From: Escherichia phage EC100
Sequence record: NC_105587.1
Length of the DNA stretch: 64,000 nt
Reading direction: 5' to 3' (one strand)
In this document: positions 19,443 through 61,340 of the stretch, piece by piece
Numbering within the stretch: the stretch's first letter is position 1
How the letters are laid out: each line of letters opens with the position of its first letter
Program-made: the position numbers and the translations under genes
The notes under the pieces: generated by a model
Database searches by the model: none
What the model saw: only the letters and a program-made list of their open reading frames with translations
Told to the model about the DNA's origin: nothing

Positions 19443-19471
19443 ATTATACCAAAATTTTTAGCAAAAAGCAA
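19443..19471 (-). promoter_or_regulatory. strong sigma70 early promoter
   Basis: TTGCTT/17 bp/TATAAT, A-tract. Confidence 0.6.
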
Positions 19472-19478
19472 GTAAAAT

Positions 19479-19505
19479 AAAAGCCTGATCCGCTAAGATC
19501 AGGCT
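19479..19505 (-). terminator. hairpin terminator
   Basis: AGCCTGATC-loop-GATCAGGCT with flanking T-runs. Confidence 0.5.
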
Positions 19506-49254: not shown

Positions 49255-51585
49255 TTATAACTGGCAACCACCAGAAGCACAACCCGCTGCTTCTTCACCA
49301 GCTCCTCCACCATTCGCAGTGTTAAAGTTAGCATAATACCAAGTTTTTATACCGTACTTAACAGCAGTCATGAAATCACGAACTACTACTGGGCCAGGGA
49401 TGATTTCATTCTCGAATTTAGAGTAATCATAATACATCTGGAAACTTGATGACTGATTCAAGAATTTTTGGTAAACGGCGTTCCACTTGATCCACTCAGT
49501 GCGATCAATATCATAGGCCAGTTTATAGCTCATTAATGTTTCCCAATCAGTCGCACCTGGGGCAATTGCAATTACTTTATTCACTGCACTACCCTTGATA
49601 GATACAATCTTACGAGGTGGCTCAATTGAGTTGGTAACACCTAACAGAACAGAGGAACTTTCTCCCGGCATCTGAGCAGTCAGAACAGAGTTACGCATAC
49701 CGTATTTCAGAATATCTGCACGGAGAGATTCCCAATCCATTTCTAGACCTACGGATACCAGCTCATCAACAGTTTTCTTATACGTGTCGATTACCAGAAT
49801 TCCTTTGGATGGTTTAGTACGATTAAACCATTCACATGCACCTTGTTCTTTAGCCAGACGTACAGAGGCTTTATGTAGGAAGTAAGACAGTTTTTCAGCC
49901 TCACGGTGAATCCAGTTACGTGCTTCAACGCCTTCATAAGCCAGACCTTCTGCTGCCATTGCACCTGCTGCGTTCATAAGGCCAATACCAACGTTACGAC
50001 GTTTCTTAGCTGTATATTCCATAGTTGGGAACGGATAGTCCTGAATTTCAATAATTGTATCAACGAATTTCAGGAGGATGTAGCAAGTTTTTTCCCACTC
50101 AGCCAGAGATTCCATGCGTCCTAGTACAACACCACCTAAGTTACACAGAGATACTTCCCCAATATCCTCCGGCTTCATTTGATCAAGTTGTTCTTTTGTT
50201 TTATACAGTTCCGTGATATGATGGAGCGGGCGTGTAGGCTGAGTAATTTCAACACAAAGGTTTGTCATACGGATTGGATCAAGGAAGTTACCGTGACGAT
50301 TAGATTCCCCAATGTGGTGCGCATACATGCGTCCTGTTTCCATTCGGATACGTAGCCAGGTATCTAGGATTTCTTTTGCAGAGACTTTAGGAGCTGCTGG
50401 AACTGTTTTTCCTTCGTGGTCGATCTTTGTAAGAGATGCCACACGTTTCTCCGCTGCCACATAGATTTCTTCAAATTTAGCCTCGTCATCACTATAAAAC
50501 GCTTCATGAACTTCTGGAGCATAGAAGTATGACATTAGCGTAATATCTTCATTTTTCAGATAACGTTTTAACAAAAGATTGTTGAAACTCAGAGAATAAT
50601 CCATCTTATCGATTTTATTCTCATCTGTAGCACGTTGTTGCTTAACCTGCATCAACTGGATGATTTCAGGGTCAAAGTAAGGATAGGATACAGTAGCAGA
50701 ACCACCACGAGTTTGCTGAGTATTAGCCTTTACTGATCGGTCAATGTGTCGATAATATGGCAGTTTTCCGGAATGCGGGAATGCCCCATTTCGCACCGGA
50801 TCAGCAATTGATCGGCTTTCAAGATGATACCCGATTCCCGCTCTGGCTGCGACCATTTTAAAAACGATGTGCTCGGCTGTGTCGATTGAATCCAATGTGT
50901 CAGTGGAATCCACGAGGCAGCAACTAGCAAATCCACGGTCACTAGAGCGCAAGCCAACCAATGGCGGCGTAGGAACGTTGATTTTGTGGAGCGACATTGC
51001 ATTGTAGAGGTCGATTGCATCTAGAATTGTCCAGTTAGGTTGAGATAACATCGCCATTGCCATGCCCATATAGGCAAATTGCGGGGTTTCGTAAATTTCG
51101 CCAGTTGCGATATTACGACGGGAATACTTATCAAAGAATTGTTTCAGTCCTCCGCTAGTGAAAAGACGGTCACGATCATGATCAATAACCTGATTCAAAG
51201 CCTCAAACTGCTCATCGGTAATCCATGCACTCATGTCTTCCCATGCACCTACACTAACCATATGATCGTGGAAAAAGCGTAGAGAAGGTGGTTCGAAGGA
51301 ATCATAAAGGCGTTTACGCATCTGCGCAAGACGTAATTCCTTTGCAGGCACGTCGTATGCTGGATTATCTTTGATAAGACTTTCAGCAGCTTTAATTAAC
51401 GCATCCATCAGAGTATCGGAATCTACAACCCCTTTAGGCAGAGTTTTTTGAGCAGCCATAGTAATGGCTGACCAACTTACATCAACTGTTTTGCAACCAT
51501 ACTCTGCCCAACCATTGAGTTTTTCAGGAGCAAAGTCTTCTACAGTACCGTCACGTTTAATTACTTTTTCAATGCGATGGCTCAT
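49255..51585 (-). CDS. nrdA: ribonucleotide reductase large subunit
   Basis: ORF trimmed to 'MSHRIEKVIKRDG' (ATP-cone) with AAGGAAA RBS; ~776 aa. Confidence 0.85.
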   Translation of the reverse strand: MSHRIEKVIKRDGTVEDFAPEKLNGWAEYGCKTVDVSWSAITMAAQKTLPKGVVDSDTLMDALIKAAESLIKDNPAYDVPAKELRLAQMRKRLYDSFEPPSLRFFHDHMVSVGAWEDMSAWITDEQFEALNQVIDHDRDRLFTSGGLKQFFDKYSRRNIATGEIYETPQFAYMGMAMAMLSQPNWTILDAIDLYNAMSLHKINVPTPPLVGLRSSDRGFASCCLVDSTDTLDSIDTAEHIVFKMVAARAGIGYHLESRSIADPVRNGAFPHSGKLPYYRHIDRSVKANTQQTRGGSATVSYPYFDPEIIQLMQVKQQRATDENKIDKMDYSLSFNNLLLKRYLKNEDITLMSYFYAPEVHEAFYSDDEAKFEEIYVAAEKRVASLTKIDHEGKTVPAAPKVSAKEILDTWLRIRMETGRMYAHHIGESNRHGNFLDPIRMTNLCVEITQPTRPLHHITELYKTKEQLDQMKPEDIGEVSLCNLGGVVLGRMESLAEWEKTCYILLKFVDTIIEIQDYPFPTMEYTAKKRRNVGIGLMNAAGAMAAEGLAYEGVEARNWIHREAEKLSYFLHKASVRLAKEQGACEWFNRTKPSKGILVIDTYKKTVDELVSVGLEMDWESLRADILKYGMRNSVLTAQMPGESSSVLLGVTNSIEPPRKIVSIKGSAVNKVIAIAPGATDWETLMSYKLAYDIDRTEWIKWNAVYQKFLNQSSSFQMYYDYSKFENEIIPGPVVVRDFMTAVKYGIKTWYYANFNTANGGGAGEEAAGCASGGCQL

Positions 51586-51729
51586 TTGGTTTTCCTTTTT
51601 ATAGTTATCAGGATTTAGGAAATAGTTTACTTTATTCTCAGTCATTTGGCAAATAAAATTTTCTGATAGAAAAGGCCCGAGTATTTTCATACCCAGGCCT
51701 TCTGTGTTGTCAGTCTAGTTTTTGGCCAC

Positions 51730-51927
51730 TTAAGTTCTCAGCAGAATATCTATTGAGGTACTTAGTTCATTATAATTGAAGGGCCGATTTGGATTTGAGG
51801 TTACAATTTTCCACGCTAGGGTAGTCTTAGGACTATCTTCCCCTTCCTTACGTGTAATCATATTAGCAGCACTCAGTGAAGTACGATGTATTTTTGTTTT
51901 ACGGTGTAGATGTACGACGTTTCCCAT
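51730..51927 (-). CDS. hypothetical protein
   Basis: 65-aa ORF. Confidence 0.4.
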   Translation of the reverse strand: MGNVVHLHRKTKIHRTSLSAANMITRKEGEDSPKTTLAWKIVTSNPNRPFNYNELSTSIDILLRT

Positions 51928-51928
51928 A

Positions 51929-52690
51929 TTACACCTTCCCCATGTCTTTAAAAATATCGTAGAATGCTTTAGACTCAGCAGAACGAACGTTATCGATCAA
52001 TTCGATCATTGAGAATGGAGCATTTTCATATTTCTCATAAACTTCCATAAGAAGTGCTAGACCTGAGTCACCTTTAATGTCTTTCTGAGCTATATCTCCG
52101 CAGATAATTAAACGGCAGTCTTGTCCTACACGAGTTAGGAGACAAACCATTGCCTCAACGGAAATATTCTGAGCTTCATCGACAATTACATAGGAGTTGT
52201 TGAAAGTTCTGCCACGAGCATGTTCTATAGCCAAAAATTTAATTTTCTGGCGTTCGACATATCCCTTATAGGCATGATCACCGATGGCCCATTTCATACC
52301 ATCAGCTATTGGCTCCAACCAAGGCTCTAGCTTTTCTGCTAGATCACCAGGAAGCATACCAAGAGACTTACCTAGAGGTTCATTAGGACGTACGAGAATC
52401 ACTTGCTCAATATCTGAGTGAATGTCTACGAGTTCCTGAGCTGCAAGAACGGACGGGATAAAGGTTTTACCTGTACCTGGTTCACCGATACCTACAGTCA
52501 CTGTGTTGTTCTTGATCATATTGATATATGATTTTTGCTCTCGGTTTTTACCTACTAGGGATTTAGCAACTGGGTTAGCGTAATCATTAGAAAAATCAGC
52601 CTGAATTACGTTATTCTCATATTTGTTGCCACGCTTTCTTGAACCATTGCGGTTCTCTCTTTTTTGACGTGCTTTTCCCATAAATAACAC
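51929..52690 (-). CDS. phoH: PhoH-like ATPase
   Basis: 253 aa; Walker A 'GEPGTGKTF', Walker B 'VIVDEAQN'. Confidence 0.8.
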   Translation of the reverse strand: MLFMGKARQKRENRNGSRKRGNKYENNVIQADFSNDYANPVAKSLVGKNREQKSYINMIKNNTVTVGIGEPGTGKTFIPSVLAAQELVDIHSDIEQVILVRPNEPLGKSLGMLPGDLAEKLEPWLEPIADGMKWAIGDHAYKGYVERQKIKFLAIEHARGRTFNNSYVIVDEAQNISVEAMVCLLTRVGQDCRLIICGDIAQKDIKGDSGLALLMEVYEKYENAPFSMIELIDNVRSAESKAFYDIFKDMGKV

Positions 52691-56606: not shown

Positions 56607-57099
56607 TACTCCAATTATTTTTCTAGACATTGATGGGGTGCTTAATTCGAGCATCTCCCACCATCATGCACCTGATGATGAAAAGATTTTCTTTGGAAGT
56701 GACTGGGTTTTTAAACCACTTCTCAAGGCTTTTCAGGACTTTATTCGTCCTTCTCCAATAATGATTGTTGGGGTATCTTCATGGTTCTCTGTCAAGAATG
56801 AGATGGAGAACGTTCAGATTATGGCCGGATTAGATCTTATCGATCGTTTTCTTGGTACAACGGATTTTACTGGTGGTGGGCTATCTAGAGGTAATTCTGT
56901 TCTTCGCTTCGTTGAAAAGCATAAGCTCAAACATTGGTGTGTGCTGGATGACGCTGGTGCTATGATGTATCAGTATCCAACGGTTATAGTCAACGGTAGA
57001 ACTGGAATAAATCTTCAAGATTTAAGAGCTGTTAGCTATATGTTAGAATTTAGTCCAGATCTTGAAATGTGTAAAGCCCTACAACAATTTAAGGTGTAA
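56593..57099 (+). CDS. HAD-like phosphatase (tentative)
   Basis: 168 aa; 'IIFLDIDGVLNS' DxDGV motif I. Confidence 0.5.
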   Translation: MEISNTPIIFLDIDGVLNSSISHHHAPDDEKIFFGSDWVFKPLLKAFQDFIRPSPIMIVGVSSWFSVKNEMENVQIMAGLDLIDRFLGTTDFTGGGLSRGNSVLRFVEKHKLKHWCVLDDAGAMMYQYPTVIVNGRTGINLQDLRAVSYMLEFSPDLEMCKALQQFKV

Positions 57100-57101
57100 A
57101 T

Positions 57102-57530
57102 ATGTTCAATAATGTATTCTCTAAAGAAGCTAACCCAATATTGGTTAATTTTTGGCGTACTCTTCCAGACAACCTGTACAATGAGGCTATTAATGCTCTG
57201 AAAATATGGTGTGAGAATAATGAAATCTCCTTTGCTTTTAAAGGTGAGATTGAAGAAGCTCCCTGTATTGGTTTAATTGTGCAGGTAGAGGATGGCTTTG
57301 AAGAGATTGTCGGCTGGAAAGAGTTAGATGAAATGGGCTTGGTTTTTGCGTTAAACTATAAGCTGTTTATGCCTAATAAGCACCGTATTGTTGTTAACTA
57401 TAAAACCAGTGAATCTCCGGGCTTTCAAGTTAATGAACATTACGGTTGGTCTTACTCACCGGAAGAAGTAAATGATGGTATACAAAAACTTCGTCGTTTT
57501 GGTTATCAAATTCCGGGTTTAACCGCCTAA
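57102..57530 (+). CDS. hypothetical protein (paralog of next gene)
   Basis: 142 aa; shares 'W.ELDEMGL..ALN..LF' and C-terminal 'G..IPGL' with 57541..57933. Confidence 0.5.
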   Translation: MFNNVFSKEANPILVNFWRTLPDNLYNEAINALKIWCENNEISFAFKGEIEEAPCIGLIVQVEDGFEEIVGWKELDEMGLVFALNYKLFMPNKHRIVVNYKTSESPGFQVNEHYGWSYSPEEVNDGIQKLRRFGYQIPGLTA

Positions 57531-57540
57531 AGGGGGCACA

Positions 57541-57933
57541 ATGGAACAAGTATATTGGCGTCAGATTGATCCTAGTTTGGTGAAGCGTGCGGAGAAGCTG
57601 CTACAACGTTGGTTGGGGGTAAGACAAGCCTCCTTCACTTTTCCGGAGCAGCAAATAGACGATCCCTGTGTTGGTGTTTTCCTATCAGGCTACGCTAGGG
57701 AATGGGAATTGGATTGGAATGAATTGTCTGCTATGGGTTTAATTGTTGCACTAAATTTCTCTTTGTTCCATCCACGTGGTTTGGCCATATGTCGTGTGCC
57801 TGATGACGGTTGTTCGCCCCATCTTTTACAGGTGGAAGATGATATTTGGGAGTACACTCCAGATATTCTCAAAGAAGCCAAAGAACAATTAAACCGTGTT
57901 GGGATCTATGTTCCGGGGCTAAATGATAAATGA
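57541..57933 (+). CDS. hypothetical protein (paralog of previous gene)
   Basis: 130 aa; GGGGG RBS; terminator follows. Confidence 0.5.
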   Translation: MEQVYWRQIDPSLVKRAEKLLQRWLGVRQASFTFPEQQIDDPCVGVFLSGYAREWELDWNELSAMGLIVALNFSLFHPRGLAICRVPDDGCSPHLLQVEDDIWEYTPDILKEAKEQLNRVGIYVPGLNDK

Positions 57934-57957
57934 TTTTTATTAGTTGACCTCTGATTA

Positions 57958-57985
57958 CCGAGTCATTTTGGCTCGGTTTTCTCTA
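57958..57985 (+). terminator. rho-independent terminator
   Basis: CCGAGTCA-TTTTG-GCTCGG then TTTTCT. Confidence 0.55.
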
Positions 57986-58024
57986 TGCTCAAAGACACTG
58001 ATAGCACCATCCGGAAAATTTTAC

Positions 58025-58053
58025 TTGCAGGATGCCCAAAATCTTGATATAAT
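58025..58053 (+). promoter_or_regulatory. putative extended -10 sigma70 promoter
   Basis: TTGCAG/17 bp/TGaTATAAT; ~490 nt upstream of GTG 58551. Confidence 0.4.
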
Positions 58054-58550
58054 ATTTATATTGAATTGAGAGACATTAGTAAAAATTGATTTTGCTAATT
58101 TTTCTTGTTTACAATCCGCGATACGGAACAGTTAGGCTGCCCCATTAAGGGTTGTTTTAACTATTACTAGTGTTTATATTGCATTAGTTAATCTTCAATT
58201 AAGTGATCTGTGTACCCTGAATTCGGAAAGGTAAATCCAAACCGTGCATATTTAGCTCGTTATATAGGCAGAGTTTTATATGGGGGTGCGAACGAAAAGA
58301 GCAGCGAATGGCGGCACGTACAGTAGTCACCTACCAATAGGATAGTGAGGACAAATAGAATCGGCTTAGCGGCCAATGACCTAGGTTCTATTCTGTATAT
58401 GAGCGAAGAGAGCACAGCACTGAGATATGATAACTTATTCATATTGTTTGATGATAATTGATGTTTACGTAAATAGTAGTAATAGTTGTTCTATTCTTTC
58501 TGAATAGTCCTAAAGAAAAGATTTCGATTAACCAACACAGGAGTATTGTT

Positions 58551-60389
58551 GTGTTTTCTATCCTTCAAGGTCACGCCGGATTTTCTCGTGATTTAGCAAC
58601 AGGTATTTGGCGAGAAATCAAAGCGGAAGATTATACCTTTGCCAAGCGATTCTCGAAAGAGCATCCAGAAGGTAAACCAGCTTCTATGCCCTTCAAATTT
58701 GATGTAATAGAAGAGCACGACCCACAAAGCCTTGCCGAAATGTTACCCCTTATGAGACGTTTAACGTCTGACCCTCATATCGTTGCGGTACGAGGTCGAT
58801 GTCTTGCACCTAAAAATAATGTGCGACGTAAGAAAGGTAACTTTAATGTATCTAATCCTAGTAATATTATTGCTATGGACGTGGATGGTATCCTAGATAC
58901 CGGTGGGTACGACAAATTTAATCTTGTTGGTATGGCCCGCCACATTATTAAGATGTTGAATAGTATTAGTGAGGATATGTTTCCTCTTGATGCAGGCTTT
59001 ATAGCTCATGCATCATCTTCGGCTGGGCTAAAACCAGGTATCCGAATGCACTTAATGCTAGAATCTAACGTCAAGGTAACTCAGGGTCAGCTAAAGTTCT
59101 TATTTACATCTATCAACGATAGTAGTAAGCAAAAATTTGGTTTTGATATTGCCGACCTAGCTTATTATTCATCTGTCCAGCTCCACTATTTTGCCGACCC
59201 CTTATTTAGCGATGGTATTGTTGATCCGTTTAAAGCGGAGAGTAAGCCACGTCTGGTGTATGTTAAAGGTTCGAAAGTAAATTTGCCCAATAATCTAGTT
59301 GACTATGAAACAACTAGAGGGGAGTTTAAGGAAGAGTTTTATTCTTTACTTGATCAAATTAAAGGCAAAAAGATTGCTTCTGATAAAGTAGAAGAAACCA
59401 TCAGCGAGTTAGAAGAGGCTGATGATGGAGTGTATTTGCGTATTATCCCCAAACTATACCATAGAGCATTAGAGGATGGTGTTGATTTTGCATGGCTAGA
59501 ACGTGAGATTAAACCAGCTTTATCTGAATATATTGCAACTAAAGATAACAGTCGTAATATTCAAGATTACTTTAATAACGGTCGTAAGCAGGCTCTCAAA
59601 GCGTTTGTTAATAATTCTAAACGTGAGATTCCATTAAATCTGAAAGGTGTTCCACTTAAGAAATTAGAAGTGGATTCTCCACCAGAAGTTCCATACCTGA
59701 AGATTAATATTGTGCCCCCAAAAGGCCATATAACATTTGTTAAGGCAAGTCTTGGTACGGGTAAAACTACGGCAGTAACTAAATGGCTGGACGCAGGTGT
59801 TCTTCCGGGCAACTTTTTAGCAGTTACAAATACTAGAGCACTGGTATCTTCAAATGCCAAGAAATTTAGTGCAGGACAATACGATAAGTCTGTAGATATG
59901 CTCAACTTTAAGCGTGGAGCTATTGATCGTATGTCCACAACTATTCACTCTTTGCATAAGTTCAAAAGTTTTATTGGGCAAATAGACACCATTTTTATTG
60001 ATGAATGTGACGCTGTAATGAATGACCTATTATTCGCCCCTGTTGTTAAACAACGTCGTGAGTGTATTCAAGTTCTACGTGACATCCTCATGACAGCTAA
60101 GACTGTAATCTTATCCGATGGTGATATTAGTGCTGAGACGATTGAAGCATATGGTTCTCTAATTGATTTTGATAAACCGGTTGCATTTTATAATCATCAC
60201 CGTAAAATGCTGTCAAAAGCTCATGCTTATGAGTTCCCTGATGAGTCCAGTATTTGGGTTGCACTTCAGACTTCTCTAGAGATGGGTGAGAAATCTATTC
60301 TAGTATCTGATTGTGGCCCGGATGAGCTAAATGAGAAAGGTATGGCACTGCGTCGTAATACGGGTGCGTTAGTTAAGGAAATCCATTGA
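58551..60389 (+). CDS. replication protein, N-terminal part (primase-polymerase-like plus P-loop NTPase)
   Basis: GTG start after ACAGGAG RBS; 'IAMDVDG' and 'HASSSAG..IRMHLM' (AEP-like), Walker A 'SLGTGKTT', Walker B 'IFIDECD'; ends at TGA 60387-60389. Confidence 0.6.
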   Translation: MFSILQGHAGFSRDLATGIWREIKAEDYTFAKRFSKEHPEGKPASMPFKFDVIEEHDPQSLAEMLPLMRRLTSDPHIVAVRGRCLAPKNNVRRKKGNFNVSNPSNIIAMDVDGILDTGGYDKFNLVGMARHIIKMLNSISEDMFPLDAGFIAHASSSAGLKPGIRMHLMLESNVKVTQGQLKFLFTSINDSSKQKFGFDIADLAYYSSVQLHYFADPLFSDGIVDPFKAESKPRLVYVKGSKVNLPNNLVDYETTRGEFKEEFYSLLDQIKGKKIASDKVEETISELEEADDGVYLRIIPKLYHRALEDGVDFAWLEREIKPALSEYIATKDNSRNIQDYFNNGRKQALKAFVNNSKREIPLNLKGVPLKKLEVDSPPEVPYLKINIVPPKGHITFVKASLGTGKTTAVTKWLDAGVLPGNFLAVTNTRALVSSNAKKFSAGQYDKSVDMLNFKRGAIDRMSTTIHSLHKFKSFIGQIDTIFIDECDAVMNDLLFAPVVKQRRECIQVLRDILMTAKTVILSDGDISAETIEAYGSLIDFDKPVAFYNHHRKMLSKAHAYEFPDESSIWVALQTSLEMGEKSILVSDCGPDELNEKGMALRRNTGALVKEIH

Positions 60390-60404
60390 AACTCTACCTC
60401 AGAT

Positions 60405-61340
60405 GTGGATATTCGACGTATTCTGGATTACACAACTAATGAACTAATTGATCAACAAATTGATTGCTTATTATGTAGTCCATCCGTAACGAGTGGTGTT
60501 GACTTTAACTATTTTGATAACGTATTTGTGATTACTAGAACTAGTAATCAAGCGCCAAACATGCGTTTCCAAGCAATCAGGCGCGACCGTGGTGCTCAGA
60601 ATATCTATTATTTTATTGATAAATCCACTAGTGGATTCTCCGCAGGTTCTGAACAATATAATATTGATGAGGGTTGGCTGGAGTTAGCACAGCAATTATA
60701 TGCACGTCGCAGGGAGCTGGAATCTAGGAACTATACTAGTACTTTACGTTATTACTTGCTTGATCAGGGTGCAACTATTGATATTTTCAGTGAAAGCTGG
60801 GGAACTATTGAAGGTGCTGGTAAAGAGTACACAGAAGAGCGAATCAAAGCTATTCTGCACTCAACTCCTGATTATTGTGCTCCACGTCATGCGGATGCGT
60901 ATGAAGCTAAGCTACTTCTTGTTCGCTATTATCATCTCGAGTCTATTAAAGATGTAACAGTTGAGCATGTTGAACAATATATAAAAGATAAACCGAATGA
61001 TCGAGCTGCATTCTTCCATAAGATGCACGAGATGTTCTGGGAAGATATTAAGAAGTGTTCAAATGTGACCATTAAACCATTCATAGAGGCTCTGAAAGGT
61101 AAGAAGAAAGATTTCTTCCTTAAAACCGGTCAGAGTGCTAACCCAAAATATGCTAGAATGTATCTTGGCATGATGGGTATTGGTAAGGATATGAACACGG
61201 AGAATATCGTAGACTGGTACAGAACCTACTGTAAAATCGAGTGTATGCCAATTCCTTATAAATTCATGACTGACGAGGAAAAACATATGCACGATGAAGC
61301 AATGTCAGAGCTAGGTGCTAGAAATGACAGTGAAGAATAA
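60405..61340 (+). CDS. replication protein, C-terminal part (same frame as 58551..60389)
   Basis: 311 aa; in frame with upstream ORF, separated by a single TGA plus 5 codons. Confidence 0.5.
   Translation: MDIRRILDYTTNELIDQQIDCLLCSPSVTSGVDFNYFDNVFVITRTSNQAPNMRFQAIRRDRGAQNIYYFIDKSTSGFSAGSEQYNIDEGWLELAQQLYARRRELESRNYTSTLRYYLLDQGATIDIFSESWGTIEGAGKEYTEERIKAILHSTPDYCAPRHADAYEAKLLLVRYYHLESIKDVTVEHVEQYIKDKPNDRAAFFHKMHEMFWEDIKKCSNVTIKPFIEALKGKKKDFFLKTGQSANPKYARMYLGMMGIGKDMNTENIVDWYRTYCKIECMPIPYKFMTDEEKHMHDEAMSELGARNDSEE

What the first reader, a model, noticed from the sequence alone, without database searches (positions are those of the whole stretch)
58025..58550. ~500-nt untranslated region between a promoter-like site and the replication gene
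An extended -10 promoter-like sequence (TTGCAG/17/TGaTATAAT) at 58025-58053 is followed by ~490 nt with only 19-20-aa ORFs before the RBS and GTG start at 58551. The region has mixed composition, unlike the AT-rich promoter leaders elsewhere. It may be a long regulatory 5'-UTR, a small RNA, or a replication-origin-like site given the adjacent gene.
Basis: inference. Interest (0 to 1): 0.4.

Follow-up and report, generated by a model that had tools for sequence, protein, structure and literature searches.

The report
Large structured leader RNA before T5 helicase
The ~490-nt gap between an early promoter and the replication helicase gene D2 of this T5-like phage encodes a large, intricately folded RNA that is conserved by compensatory mutations across T5 relatives, matches no known RNA family, and may control or assist the start of phage DNA replication.

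Summary
The window is a T5-like phage, 100% identical to Escherichia phage EC122 in this stretch. The promoter at 58025-58053 is real in form. It coincides with the annotated T5 early promoter, and TTGCAA/17/TGnTATAAT is kept at the same position in six divergent lineages. The 490 nt that follow are non-coding, and no ORF is conserved.

This leader folds on the + strand into one structured RNA of about 450 nt:
- two 5' hairpins (H1, H2);
- a core of about 330 nt (58158-58488) closed by a 35-bp rod;
- a 3' hairpin (P9).

Covariation support is strong. On a plain MAFFT alignment of 7 sequences from 6 lineages, 90% of cells pair, against 39-50% when partners are slid, and 34 of 61 pairs show double changes. 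T5-type and SH9-type cores differ at 28 positions, which change 14 pairs and break only one. G-U pairs make up 15% of cells and A-C pairs 1.3%, which fixes the + strand.

A covariance model finds the element once in the window. It always lies just upstream of D2, in Tequintavirus, Epseptimavirus, Sugarlandvirus, My1 and PR1-type phages. Nothing in Rfam 15 or the searched literature matches it.

Function is inferred, not shown. The most likely role is a cis-acting leader that sets D2 expression. The rivals are a processed stand-alone RNA or an origin or primer transcript. I found no iterons and no recognisable expression platform.

The parts
57957..57977 (+). Intrinsic terminator that ends the upstream operon (DUF7415 gene 57541-57933).
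   Evidence: 9-bp stem followed by a T-run. Annotated as a terminator in T5 records.
58025..58053 (+). Early sigma-70 promoter: -35 TTGCAG at 58025-30, 17-nt spacer, extended -10 TGaTATAAT at 58045-53. The predicted transcript start is near 58060.
   Evidence: T5 annotation as promoter / T5P32. The same architecture is conserved in position in divergent lineages. The transcript start is inferred, not mapped.
58068..58106 (+). H1, a 5'-terminal stem-loop (GAGAGA...UUUUUC outer stem and a 10-bp inner stem). It probably acts as a 5' stabiliser.
   Evidence: The hairpin is present with different sequences in T5, L064, My1, Sugarland and PR1 leaders.
58111..58155 (+). H2 hairpin. It contains the 26-nt block GAUACGGAACAGUUAGGCUGCCCCAU (58120-58145), which is nearly invariant across T5, DT57C, L064 and My1 types.
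   Evidence: The block is single-copy in the window. An exact-pattern scan of metagenomes found only T5-like contigs.
58158..58488 (+). Core domain of about 330 nt. It is closed by the P1-P2 rod (58158-58198 paired with 58448-58488, 35 bp) and P3 (58202-58213 with 58412-58421).
   Evidence: Inverted repeats. Fold. Covariance model R1 hits 58156-58512 at 440 bits, the only hit in the window. Covariation.
58214..58287 (+). P4 subdomain: ACCCU 58214-18 paired with GGGGU 58283-87, enclosing hairpins 58224-58244 and 58247-58282.
   Evidence: P4 was inferred by comparison between lineages (CCCGU/ACGGG, UUCGU/GCGAA, GCGGU/ACCGC). (helix 4: 4 of 5 pairs with double changes). The inner hairpins are less certain.
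58304..58311 (+). Conserved junction strand GCGAAUGG, which reads GAGAAGUG, AAGAAGUG or GAGACGUG in other lineages.
   Evidence: alignment anchors.
58318..58398 (+). P5 (58318-23 with 58393-98) encloses P6 (58326-58352) and P7 (58354-62 with 58384-92). Inside P7 is the hairpin GGC-UUAGCG-GCC (58363-58374); its loop UUAGCG (58366-58371) is invariant in every lineage.
   Evidence: P7 has 7 of 8 pairs with double changes on the unfitted alignment.
58424..58445 (+). P8 hairpin, between the 3' strands of P3 and P2.
   Evidence: (helix 15: 5 of 7 pairs with double changes).
58491..58507 (+). P9 hairpin (CUAUUC/GAAUAG), just 3' of the core. It has no U-tract, so it is not a terminator.
   Evidence: It covaries between lineages (CUAUC/GAUAG, CUUUCC/GGAAAG, UUCUUU/AAAGAA).
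58539..58553 (+). Shine-Dalgarno AGGAG (58539-43) and the GTG start (58551) of the D2 helicase gene.
   Evidence: Pfam Herpes_ori_bp.
58551..61340 (+). D2 / 'replication origin binding protein' gene (SF2 bipolar helicase). In this window it is split by an in-frame TGA at 60387-60389.
   Evidence: PMC3632103.

Best explanation
Shown: the stretch 58060-58512 (+) encodes a previously undescribed family of large structured RNA. It has a 5' hairpin H1 and a hairpin H2 that carries a 26-nt near-invariant block. A multi-helix core of about 330 nt follows, closed by a 35-bp rod (P1-P2) and P3, and then hairpin P9. The element sits between a conserved early sigma-70 promoter and the Shine-Dalgarno sequence and GTG start of the D2 helicase gene, with no terminator in between, so it is expected to be the 5' leader of the D2 mRNA.

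Inferred: the leader acts in cis to set how much D2 is made, and when, after transcription starts. It would do so through mRNA stability (the 5'-terminal H1), through processing in the long double-stranded rod, and/or through translation. A trans factor (a phage or host protein, or a small ligand) would be recognised at the positions that stay invariant while all helices covary. These are the H2 block, the UUAGCG hexaloop in P7 and the GAGAAGUG-type junction. P1 closes the core, so the 5' leader hairpins and the ribosome-binding region lie next to each other in the fold.
For: Structure:
- The + strand folds with z = -3.8 for the whole leader. The core alone gives z = -2.4 on the + strand and -1.0 on the - strand.
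- RNAalifold on a plain MAFFT alignment of 7 sequences from 6 lineages predicts 61 pairs, 33 with compensatory changes.
- On that same unfitted alignment 89.8% of cells pair, against 39-50% with slid partners, and 34 pairs show double changes against 7-16 in the slid controls. No shuffle out of 500 reaches the observed values on 4 of 5 measures.
- On the model-fitted alignment of 31 sequences, 96% of cells pair against 33-46% slid, and 60 of 113 pairs show double changes.
- T5-type and SH9-type cores are 93% identical, so their alignment is unambiguous. Their 28 differences change 14 pairs: 6 double compensatory, 7 through G-U, 1 disruptive.
- G-U pairs are 15.1% of cells and A-C pairs 1.3%, which fixes the + strand.

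Non-coding: no ORF is conserved on either strand.

Cis placement:
- R1 hits once in the window.
- It always hits directly upstream of D2 on the D2 strand, in T5, SH9, DT57C and Sugarland types and in L064, My1 and PR1 types.
- There is no terminator between the RNA and D2.
- The promoter is conserved in position.
Against: - No transcript mapping exists for this locus.
- No conserved expression platform was found. Predicted partners of the Shine-Dalgarno sequence differ between lineages. The one long-range leader:SD helix that RNAalifold proposed varies mostly on one side only (helix 1).
- The RNA ends 30-150 nt before the SD, unlike classic translational operators.
- Proteus phage Stubb has a perfect consensus promoter between its long non-coding region and D2, and L064 has a promoter-like site inside the 3' rod. 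D2 can therefore perhaps be expressed without the leader.
- The core behaves as an exchangeable cassette: 39-48% identity inside flanks of 85-99% between T5 and DT57C types. That fits a trans-acting or arms-race role at least as well.
Confidence: 0.45

Rival explanations
1. The element is a stand-alone non-coding RNA. The core is cut out of the leader, for example by RNase III in the 35-bp P1-P2 rod, and acts in trans. It could be a decoy or sponge for a host defence or host protein, or the RNA part of a phage ribonucleoprotein. Co-transcription with D2 would only provide early, strong expression.
For: - The 5' and 3' ends of the core pair in a long rod, as in many stable RNAs.
- No expression platform was found.
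- The core is swapped as a cassette between otherwise near-identical phages while its structure and invariant loops are kept.
- Stubb, and possibly L064, have a D2-proximal promoter downstream of the non-coding region.
- An optional module of about 90 nt is inserted after H1 in some phages.
Against: - The RNA is never found away from D2, and never in the other orientation, in any lineage where the model detects it.
- No terminator defines a 3' end.
- Homology of the Stubb region rests only on motifs seen by eye; R1 does not detect it.
Confidence: 0.25
2. The element is an origin or primer transcript. The promoter and its structured transcript would mark a T5 replication origin. The RNA would form an R-loop or primer, as ColE1 RNA II and the T4 and T7 origin transcripts do, or the displaced + strand would form the structure. 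D2, translated next to it, would load there.
For: - The downstream gene is the UL9-like 'origin binding' SF2 helicase.
- The site lies at about 48.5% of the 121.75-kb T5 map. Electron-microscopy work placed T5 origins near the centre of the molecule (bioRxiv 10.1101/866236).
- The element has a strong promoter followed by an AT-rich start (GC 0.29-0.31 at 58000-58150).
- Long non-coding regions precede D2 homologues throughout Demerecviridae, and one carries repeats.
Against: - There are no iterons or repeated boxes.
- No promoter-like site was found on the - strand, so there is no candidate for an antisense regulator.
- Selection maintains RNA-type pairing with 15% G-U pairs on the + strand.
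- The cumulative GC skew turns at about 50-52 kb, not at 58 kb. This is confounded by the switch in transcription direction.
- Recombitron editing suggested mainly unidirectional T5 replication from one end (PMC10055335).
Confidence: 0.12
3. The element is a processive antitermination or transcription-elongation RNA. Like put RNA of phage HK022, the promoter-proximal folded RNA would act on the transcribing RNA polymerase, so that it reads through terminators of the long early replication operon.
For: - The element lies immediately after an early promoter, at the head of a long + strand operon.
- No SD-linked expression platform was found.
- Invariant unpaired nucleotides could contact a protein.
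Against: - It is about five times larger than put or EAR elements and shows no similarity to them (Rfam scans).
- Downstream terminators that would need suppression were not examined.
Confidence: 0.08
4. The region holds a small protein-coding gene, or it is a chance fold without function.
For: ORFs of 38-60 aa exist on both strands, and some records annotate hypothetical proteins here.
Against: - No ORF is conserved. The 60-aa - strand ORF is already cut to 38 aa in the SH9-type phage at 93% identity.
- The substitutions are compensatory in helices.
Confidence: 0.03

Closest known systems
Translational operators in leaders of phage T4 replication genes (gene 32 pseudoknot leader, gene 43 operator hairpin)
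   Same: Both are structured RNAs in the 5' leader of a phage replication-protein mRNA, so autogenous control is a plausible analogy. The T4 biology is from my own knowledge; gene 32 leader motifs are also discussed in PMC10690425.
   Different: The T4 operators span tens of nt and abut or overlap the ribosome-binding site. This element is about 450 nt with more than 100 base pairs, and it ends 30-150 nt upstream of the SD. No protein binding has been shown.
Large riboswitch or T-box-type leader aptamers
   Same: Both have a P1-closed, multi-junction fold in a 5' UTR. Helices covary, and nucleotides in junctions and loops stay invariant.
   Different: No terminator or SD-sequestering platform was detected. 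There is no Rfam match, and no ligand is suggested by the gene context.
Origin transcripts: ColE1 RNA II, T4 ori(uvsY)/ori(34) R-loops, T7 primary origin promoters
   Same: Both are promoter-driven transcripts beside replication functions. ColE1 RNA II is also about 550 nt, and its folding matters for its function (from my own knowledge).
   Different: There is no antisense promoter and there are no iterons. Origin activity is unmapped, and the skew turn lies elsewhere.
Large ornate phage-associated RNAs (GOLLD, ROOL)
   Same: Both are phage-encoded structured RNAs of several hundred nt, recognised by covariation, with unknown biochemical function.
   Different: GOLLD and ROOL are stand-alone genes, often near tRNA genes. 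This one is a leader fixed upstream of one gene. There are no Rfam hits at gathering score or at E<=1.
RNase III processing hairpins of T7 early mRNA and the lambda N leader
   Same: Both have a long, imperfect double-stranded rod inside an early phage transcript. Here it is 35 bp of P1-P2, kept in all lineages.
   Different: The T7 sites are simple hairpins between genes. Here the rod closes a conserved 250-nt multi-helix domain. Cleavage has not been tested.

Membership tests
Any Rfam 15 family (riboswitches, 6S, tmRNA, RNase P, group I/II introns, GOLLD/ROOL, retron msr, put and others) | The covariance-model score reaches the family's gathering score. | tested here: not met
   (window 57000-59500, E<=1) returned one chance-level hit elsewhere. 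One search covered the L013 leader. One search searched eight divergent loci at gathering score and found 0 hits.
tRNA / tmRNA | Cloverleaf or tRNA-like domain detectable by ARAGORN. | tested here: not met
   20 tRNAs at 28-40 kb and none at 58 kb. The GCUUAGCGGC motif resembles a D-arm string seen in one unrelated tRNA, but here it forms a 3-bp hairpin.
Riboswitch | Conserved aptamer with covarying helices and invariant junction nucleotides. | tested here: met
Riboswitch | Expression platform: an intrinsic terminator, or an SD-sequestering helix that competes with the aptamer. | tested here: not met
   No terminator lies after the RNA. No conserved partner of the SD was found. The leader:SD helix has weak support (helix 1).
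Riboswitch | Specific ligand binding. | not testable with these tools
   This needs in-line probing or ITC.
Iteron-type or DnaA-box replication origin | Multiple direct repeats or boxes next to an AT-rich unwinding element. | tested here: not met
   One search found only short two-copy matches of 73-83% identity. The conserved motifs are single-copy.
ColE1 RNA II-type primer | An antisense regulator (RNA I) promoter on the opposite strand within the 5' part. | tested here: not met
   One search found no - strand promoter-like site in 57500-58900.
ColE1 RNA II-type primer | A persistent RNA-DNA hybrid and a DNA synthesis start at the 3' end. | not testable with these tools
   This needs DRIP or nascent-strand mapping.
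Autogenous translational operator (T4 gene 32 / gene 43 type) | The operator overlaps or abuts the ribosome-binding site. | tested here: not met
   The core and P9 end at 58507 and the SD is at 58539. The spacer is 30-150 nt in other lineages.
Autogenous translational operator (T4 gene 32 / gene 43 type) | The encoded protein binds its own leader. | not testable with these tools
   This needs EMSA or CLIP with D2.
RNase III processing site | About 20 bp or more of largely uninterrupted double-stranded RNA. | tested here: met
   The P1-P2 rod has 35 bp with small bulges and is kept by covariation (helices 1-2).
RNase III processing site | Cleavage in vivo or in vitro. | not testable with these tools
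   This needs a comparison of rnc mutant and wild-type RNA ends.
Small protein gene | An ORF conserved in frame and length among relatives. | tested here: not met

The most novel reading that the evidence does not exclude
The RNA is the missing sequence-level determinant of replication initiation in T5-like phages. It would be a large folded origin or primer RNA, or an RNA cofactor, that the UL9-like D2 helicase recognises at its invariant loops. Alternatively, it is a new class of ribozyme or riboswitch that gates the replicative helicase. Either reading would make the T5 origin, still unmapped at sequence level, directly testable.
Probability: 0.12. Interest if true: 0.85.

Novelty: new member of a known kind. 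Interest (0 to 1): 0.6.

Why it matters
- T5 is a classical model phage, yet its replication origin and the control of its essential helicase D2 are not defined at sequence level.
- A folded RNA of about 450 nt with more than 100 base pairs, maintained by compensatory evolution across several genera of Demerecviridae, is one of the larger structured RNAs seen in a phage leader. It matches no curated family.
- The element offers concrete handles for experiments on replication-gene control or origin function: the invariant 26-nt H2 block, the UUAGCG hexaloop, and helices P3 and P7.
- It warns annotators that the small 'hypothetical proteins' called in this gap are spurious.
- The core is exchanged as a cassette between near-identical phages while its fold is kept. 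This suggests it is a specificity or arms-race determinant.

Tried and rejected
- **Known RNA family.** Three Rfam scans on the window and nine related loci found nothing.
- **Coding gene.** No ORF is conserved.
- **Iteron origin.** No repeats were found.
- **SD sequestration.** Partition-function analysis of seven leaders gave no common partner. The P7 internal-loop strand reads CCUCCUUA (anti-SD-like) only in L064 and My1, not in the other lineages, so I dropped that idea.
- **Kissing loop between the P4 hairpin and P8** (GUUAU/AUAAC in T5, GGUGG/CCACC in DT57C). I saw this by eye only and did not establish it.
- **tRNA-like or retron-like reading of UUAGCG.** This rests on a 6-10-nt resemblance and on memory. 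ARAGORN and Rfam are negative, so I did not pursue it.
- **The RNA in other contexts.** The IMG/VR pattern scan gave 30 loci that were not among the T5-like loci already held. One is the L064 contig and the rest look like chance; R1 did not confirm any. The metagenome scan with the H2 block gave only 7 DT57C-type contigs.
- **Reach into distant Demerecviridae.** R1 with filters off found nothing convincing in Proteus Stubb, four Vibrio phages or Aeromonas TS3. Stubb has a P7-like module by eye only.
- **Technical limits.** Two attempts to export a filters-off alignment failed.
- **Literature.** Seven full-text searches found no description of this element. The supplement of the 10,000-candidate viral RNA catalogue is not held, so I cannot exclude that it is listed there.

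Full report
**Identity of the locus.** The window is a T5-like phage. Bases 57900-58600 are 100% identical to Escherichia phages EC104, EC105, EC122 and EC142 and 98.4% identical to T5. In the three T5 records the same stretch runs as follows:
- a conserved hypothetical gene (T5.107; DUF7415 by Pfam);
- a rho-independent terminator;
- a 'putative early promoter' (T5P32);
- about 470 nt with no annotation;
- the gene D2, annotated as 'replication origin binding protein' (T5.108).

D2 is an SF2 bipolar helicase with a Herpes_ori_bp domain.

**Check of the observation.**
- The terminator of the upstream operon lies at 57957-57977.
- The generic scan misses the promoter because its -35 hexamer is weak. 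The same TTGCAA or TTGCCA / 17 / TGnTATAAT arrangement sits at the homologous place in Sugarland-type, L064, My1 and PR1-type phages. It is also kept in T5-like phages whose upstream sequence has been replaced.
- The gap holds mechanical ORFs of up to 38 aa on the + strand and 60 aa on the - strand. None survives between lineages.
- GC rises to 0.41-0.47 in the middle of the gap.

**What is there.**
- Long-range inverted repeats (58159-76 with 58470-87, and 58184-201 with 58455-72) enclose the GC-richer middle.
- The + strand leader folds at -133.5 kcal/mol, z = -3.8. The core alone gives z = -2.4 on the + strand and -1.0 on the - strand.
- In DT57C-type phages the flanks are 94-95% identical to the window, but 58175-58477 is replaced by a segment of the same length with only about 40-48% identity.
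- The replacement keeps short islands (GAUCUGYGU, GGCUUAGCGGCCA, AGCRCAGC). It also changes both strands of the closing stem together (AACUAUUAC/GUAAUAGUU becomes AACUGUUAC/GUAACAGUU).

**Covariation.**
- RNAalifold on a plain MAFFT alignment of seven leaders from six lineages (T5, SH9, DT57C x2, Sugarland, L064, My1) predicts 61 pairs, 33 with compensatory changes.
- On that unfitted alignment 89.8% of cells pair, against 39-50% with slid partners. Double changes occur in 34 pairs, against 7-16 in the slid controls.
- I derived a full model for the window by adding the comparatively inferred helices P4 and P5 as constraints. This costs about 3 kcal/mol relative to the MFE.
- From that model I built covariance model R1, with 357 positions and 113 pairs.
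- R1 hits the window once (58156-58512, 440 bits). It hits DT57C-type loci at 69-84 bits and Sugarland-type loci at 32 bits. With filters off it hits L064 at 28 bits, PR1 at 21 bits and My1 at 19 bits. Every hit is full-length, on the D2 strand, directly upstream of D2.
- On the fitted alignment 96% of cells pair, against 33-46% slid, and 60 of 113 pairs have double changes. This alignment leans towards the model, so searches are the cleaner evidence.
- T5-type and SH9-type cores are 93% identical. They differ at 28 positions, which change 14 pairs: 6 doubly compensatory, 7 through G-U and 1 disruptive.
- G-U pairs are 15.1% of cells and A-C pairs 1.3%. The selected molecule is therefore the + strand, as expected for RNA made from the promoter.

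**Anatomy (window coordinates).**
- Predicted transcript start near 58060.
- H1: 58068-58106.
- H2: 58111-58155, with the 26-nt near-invariant block 58120-58145.
- P1-P2 rod: 58158-58198 with 58448-58488.
- P3: 58202-13 with 58412-21.
- P4: 58214-18 with 58283-87, with two inner hairpins.
- Junction GCGAAUGG: 58304-11.
- P5: 58318-23 with 58393-98.
- P6: 58326-52.
- P7: 58354-62 with 58384-92. It encloses the hairpin 58363-74, whose UUAGCG loop is invariant in all lineages including My1, PR1 and Stubb.
- P8: 58424-45.
- P9: 58491-58507.
- Then 31 nt to the SD.

The inner P4 hairpins, the small 58301-15 hairpin and details of P6 are the least certain parts.

**Function.** Nothing here is shown experimentally. 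I favour a cis-acting leader for four reasons:
- its position relative to D2 is fixed;
- there is no intervening terminator;
- the promoter is conserved;
- the closing rod brings the 5' hairpins next to the ribosome-binding region.

I could not find an expression platform, and predicted SD partners differ by lineage. Three observations keep a processed, trans-acting RNA in play:
- a consensus promoter lies between the non-coding region and D2 in Proteus phage Stubb;
- a promoter-like site lies in the 3' rod of L064;
- the core is exchanged as a cassette.

The origin or primer idea is attractive because D2 is UL9-like. The site is also at about 48.5% of the T5 map, and T5 origins were placed near the centre. 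Against it:
- there are no iterons;
- there is no - strand promoter;
- selection acts on RNA-type pairing;
- the GC-skew turn lies at 50-52 kb;
- recombitron data point to replication from one end.

**Known or new.**
- No Rfam 15 family matches the window or eight divergent homologous loci, and ARAGORN finds no tRNA or tmRNA here.
- Seven full-text literature searches and the D2 helicase paper do not mention the element.
- It may be listed among bulk computational candidates whose tables I could not read.
- I file it as a new family within the known kind 'large structured phage RNA or 5' leader', function open.

**Spread.**
- The leader matches 440 phage records by blastn, and D2 homologues occur in 904 records.
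- Long non-coding stretches also precede D2 homologues in Vibrio, Aeromonas and Proteus Demerecviridae, but R1 does not detect homology there.

Noticed in passing
window 60387-60389: The D2 helicase gene carries an in-frame TGA where T5, SH9-type and DT57C-type phages have TCA (Ser). A single C-to-G change splits D2 into ORFs of 612 and 311 aa (58551-60389 and 60405-61340). It could be a sequencing error, a real nonsense mutation or read-through. No UCA-anticodon tRNA is among the 20 phage tRNAs.
   Followed up: partly
L013 1960-2048 (also L020, L034), equivalent to an insertion after window 58108: Some T5-type and DT57C-type phages carry an extra segment of about 90 nt right after hairpin H1, flanked by a TTTTTCTT direct repeat. 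It folds into its own hairpin, has no Rfam match, and was found only at this site. It may be an optional leader module or a small insertion element.
   Followed up: partly
window 58175-58477 versus L018-L028: The RNA core is an island of 39-48% identity inside flanks of 85-99% identity between T5-type and DT57C-type phages. The core has therefore been exchanged or has diverged as a cassette, with breakpoints inside the P1 stem.
   Followed up: yes
L066 / L119 (Proteus phage Stubb), L066 1705-1733 and 2435-2464: Two perfect consensus sigma-70 promoters bracket a stretch of about 700 nt upstream of the D2 homologue, which the record's own notes call an 'empty low gene density area'. The stretch holds a P7-like module (CCACGUAU-GCC-UUAGCG-GGU-...-AUAUCGUGG). 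Covariance model R1 does not detect homology.
   Followed up: partly
L074 719-2308 (Aeromonas phage vB_AdhS_TS3): About 1.6 kb without annotated genes lies upstream of the obp homologue. It contains a hairpin CCCGAAAAGC-UUAGCG-GUUUUUCGGG with the same hexaloop and two further UUAGCGG strings. The overall fold z-score is unremarkable (-1.2).
   Followed up: partly
L073 1724-2362 (Vibrio phage vB_VpS_PG07): The 640-nt gap upstream of the D2 homologue folds with z = -4.5. It contains a segment of about 55 nt (GACUAUCACUUUGUAGCCUCAAUCCUCGGAUUGUGUGAGUCAGUUAACUUCUGUCG) present twice about 120 nt apart. These could be iterons or a different structured RNA.
   Followed up: no
window 19470-19497, - strand: A terminator-like hairpin AAAGCCUGAUC-UUAGCG-GAUCAGGCUUU followed by a U-run carries the same UUAGCG loop as P7. 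About 0.2 such hits are expected by chance, so it may be coincidence.
   Followed up: partly
window 50000-52000: The cumulative GC skew reaches its minimum here, where genes switch from the - strand to the + strand. This is a candidate divergence point or origin region about 7 kb upstream of the D2 leader.
   Followed up: no
window 58447-58474 and L064 2405-2433: A promoter-like site lies inside the 3' strand of the P2/P1 rod. It reads TTGATG/17/TATAAT in L064 and only TTGATG/16/TAAATA in the window. In some lineages it could give a short D2 transcript lacking the structured RNA.
   Followed up: no
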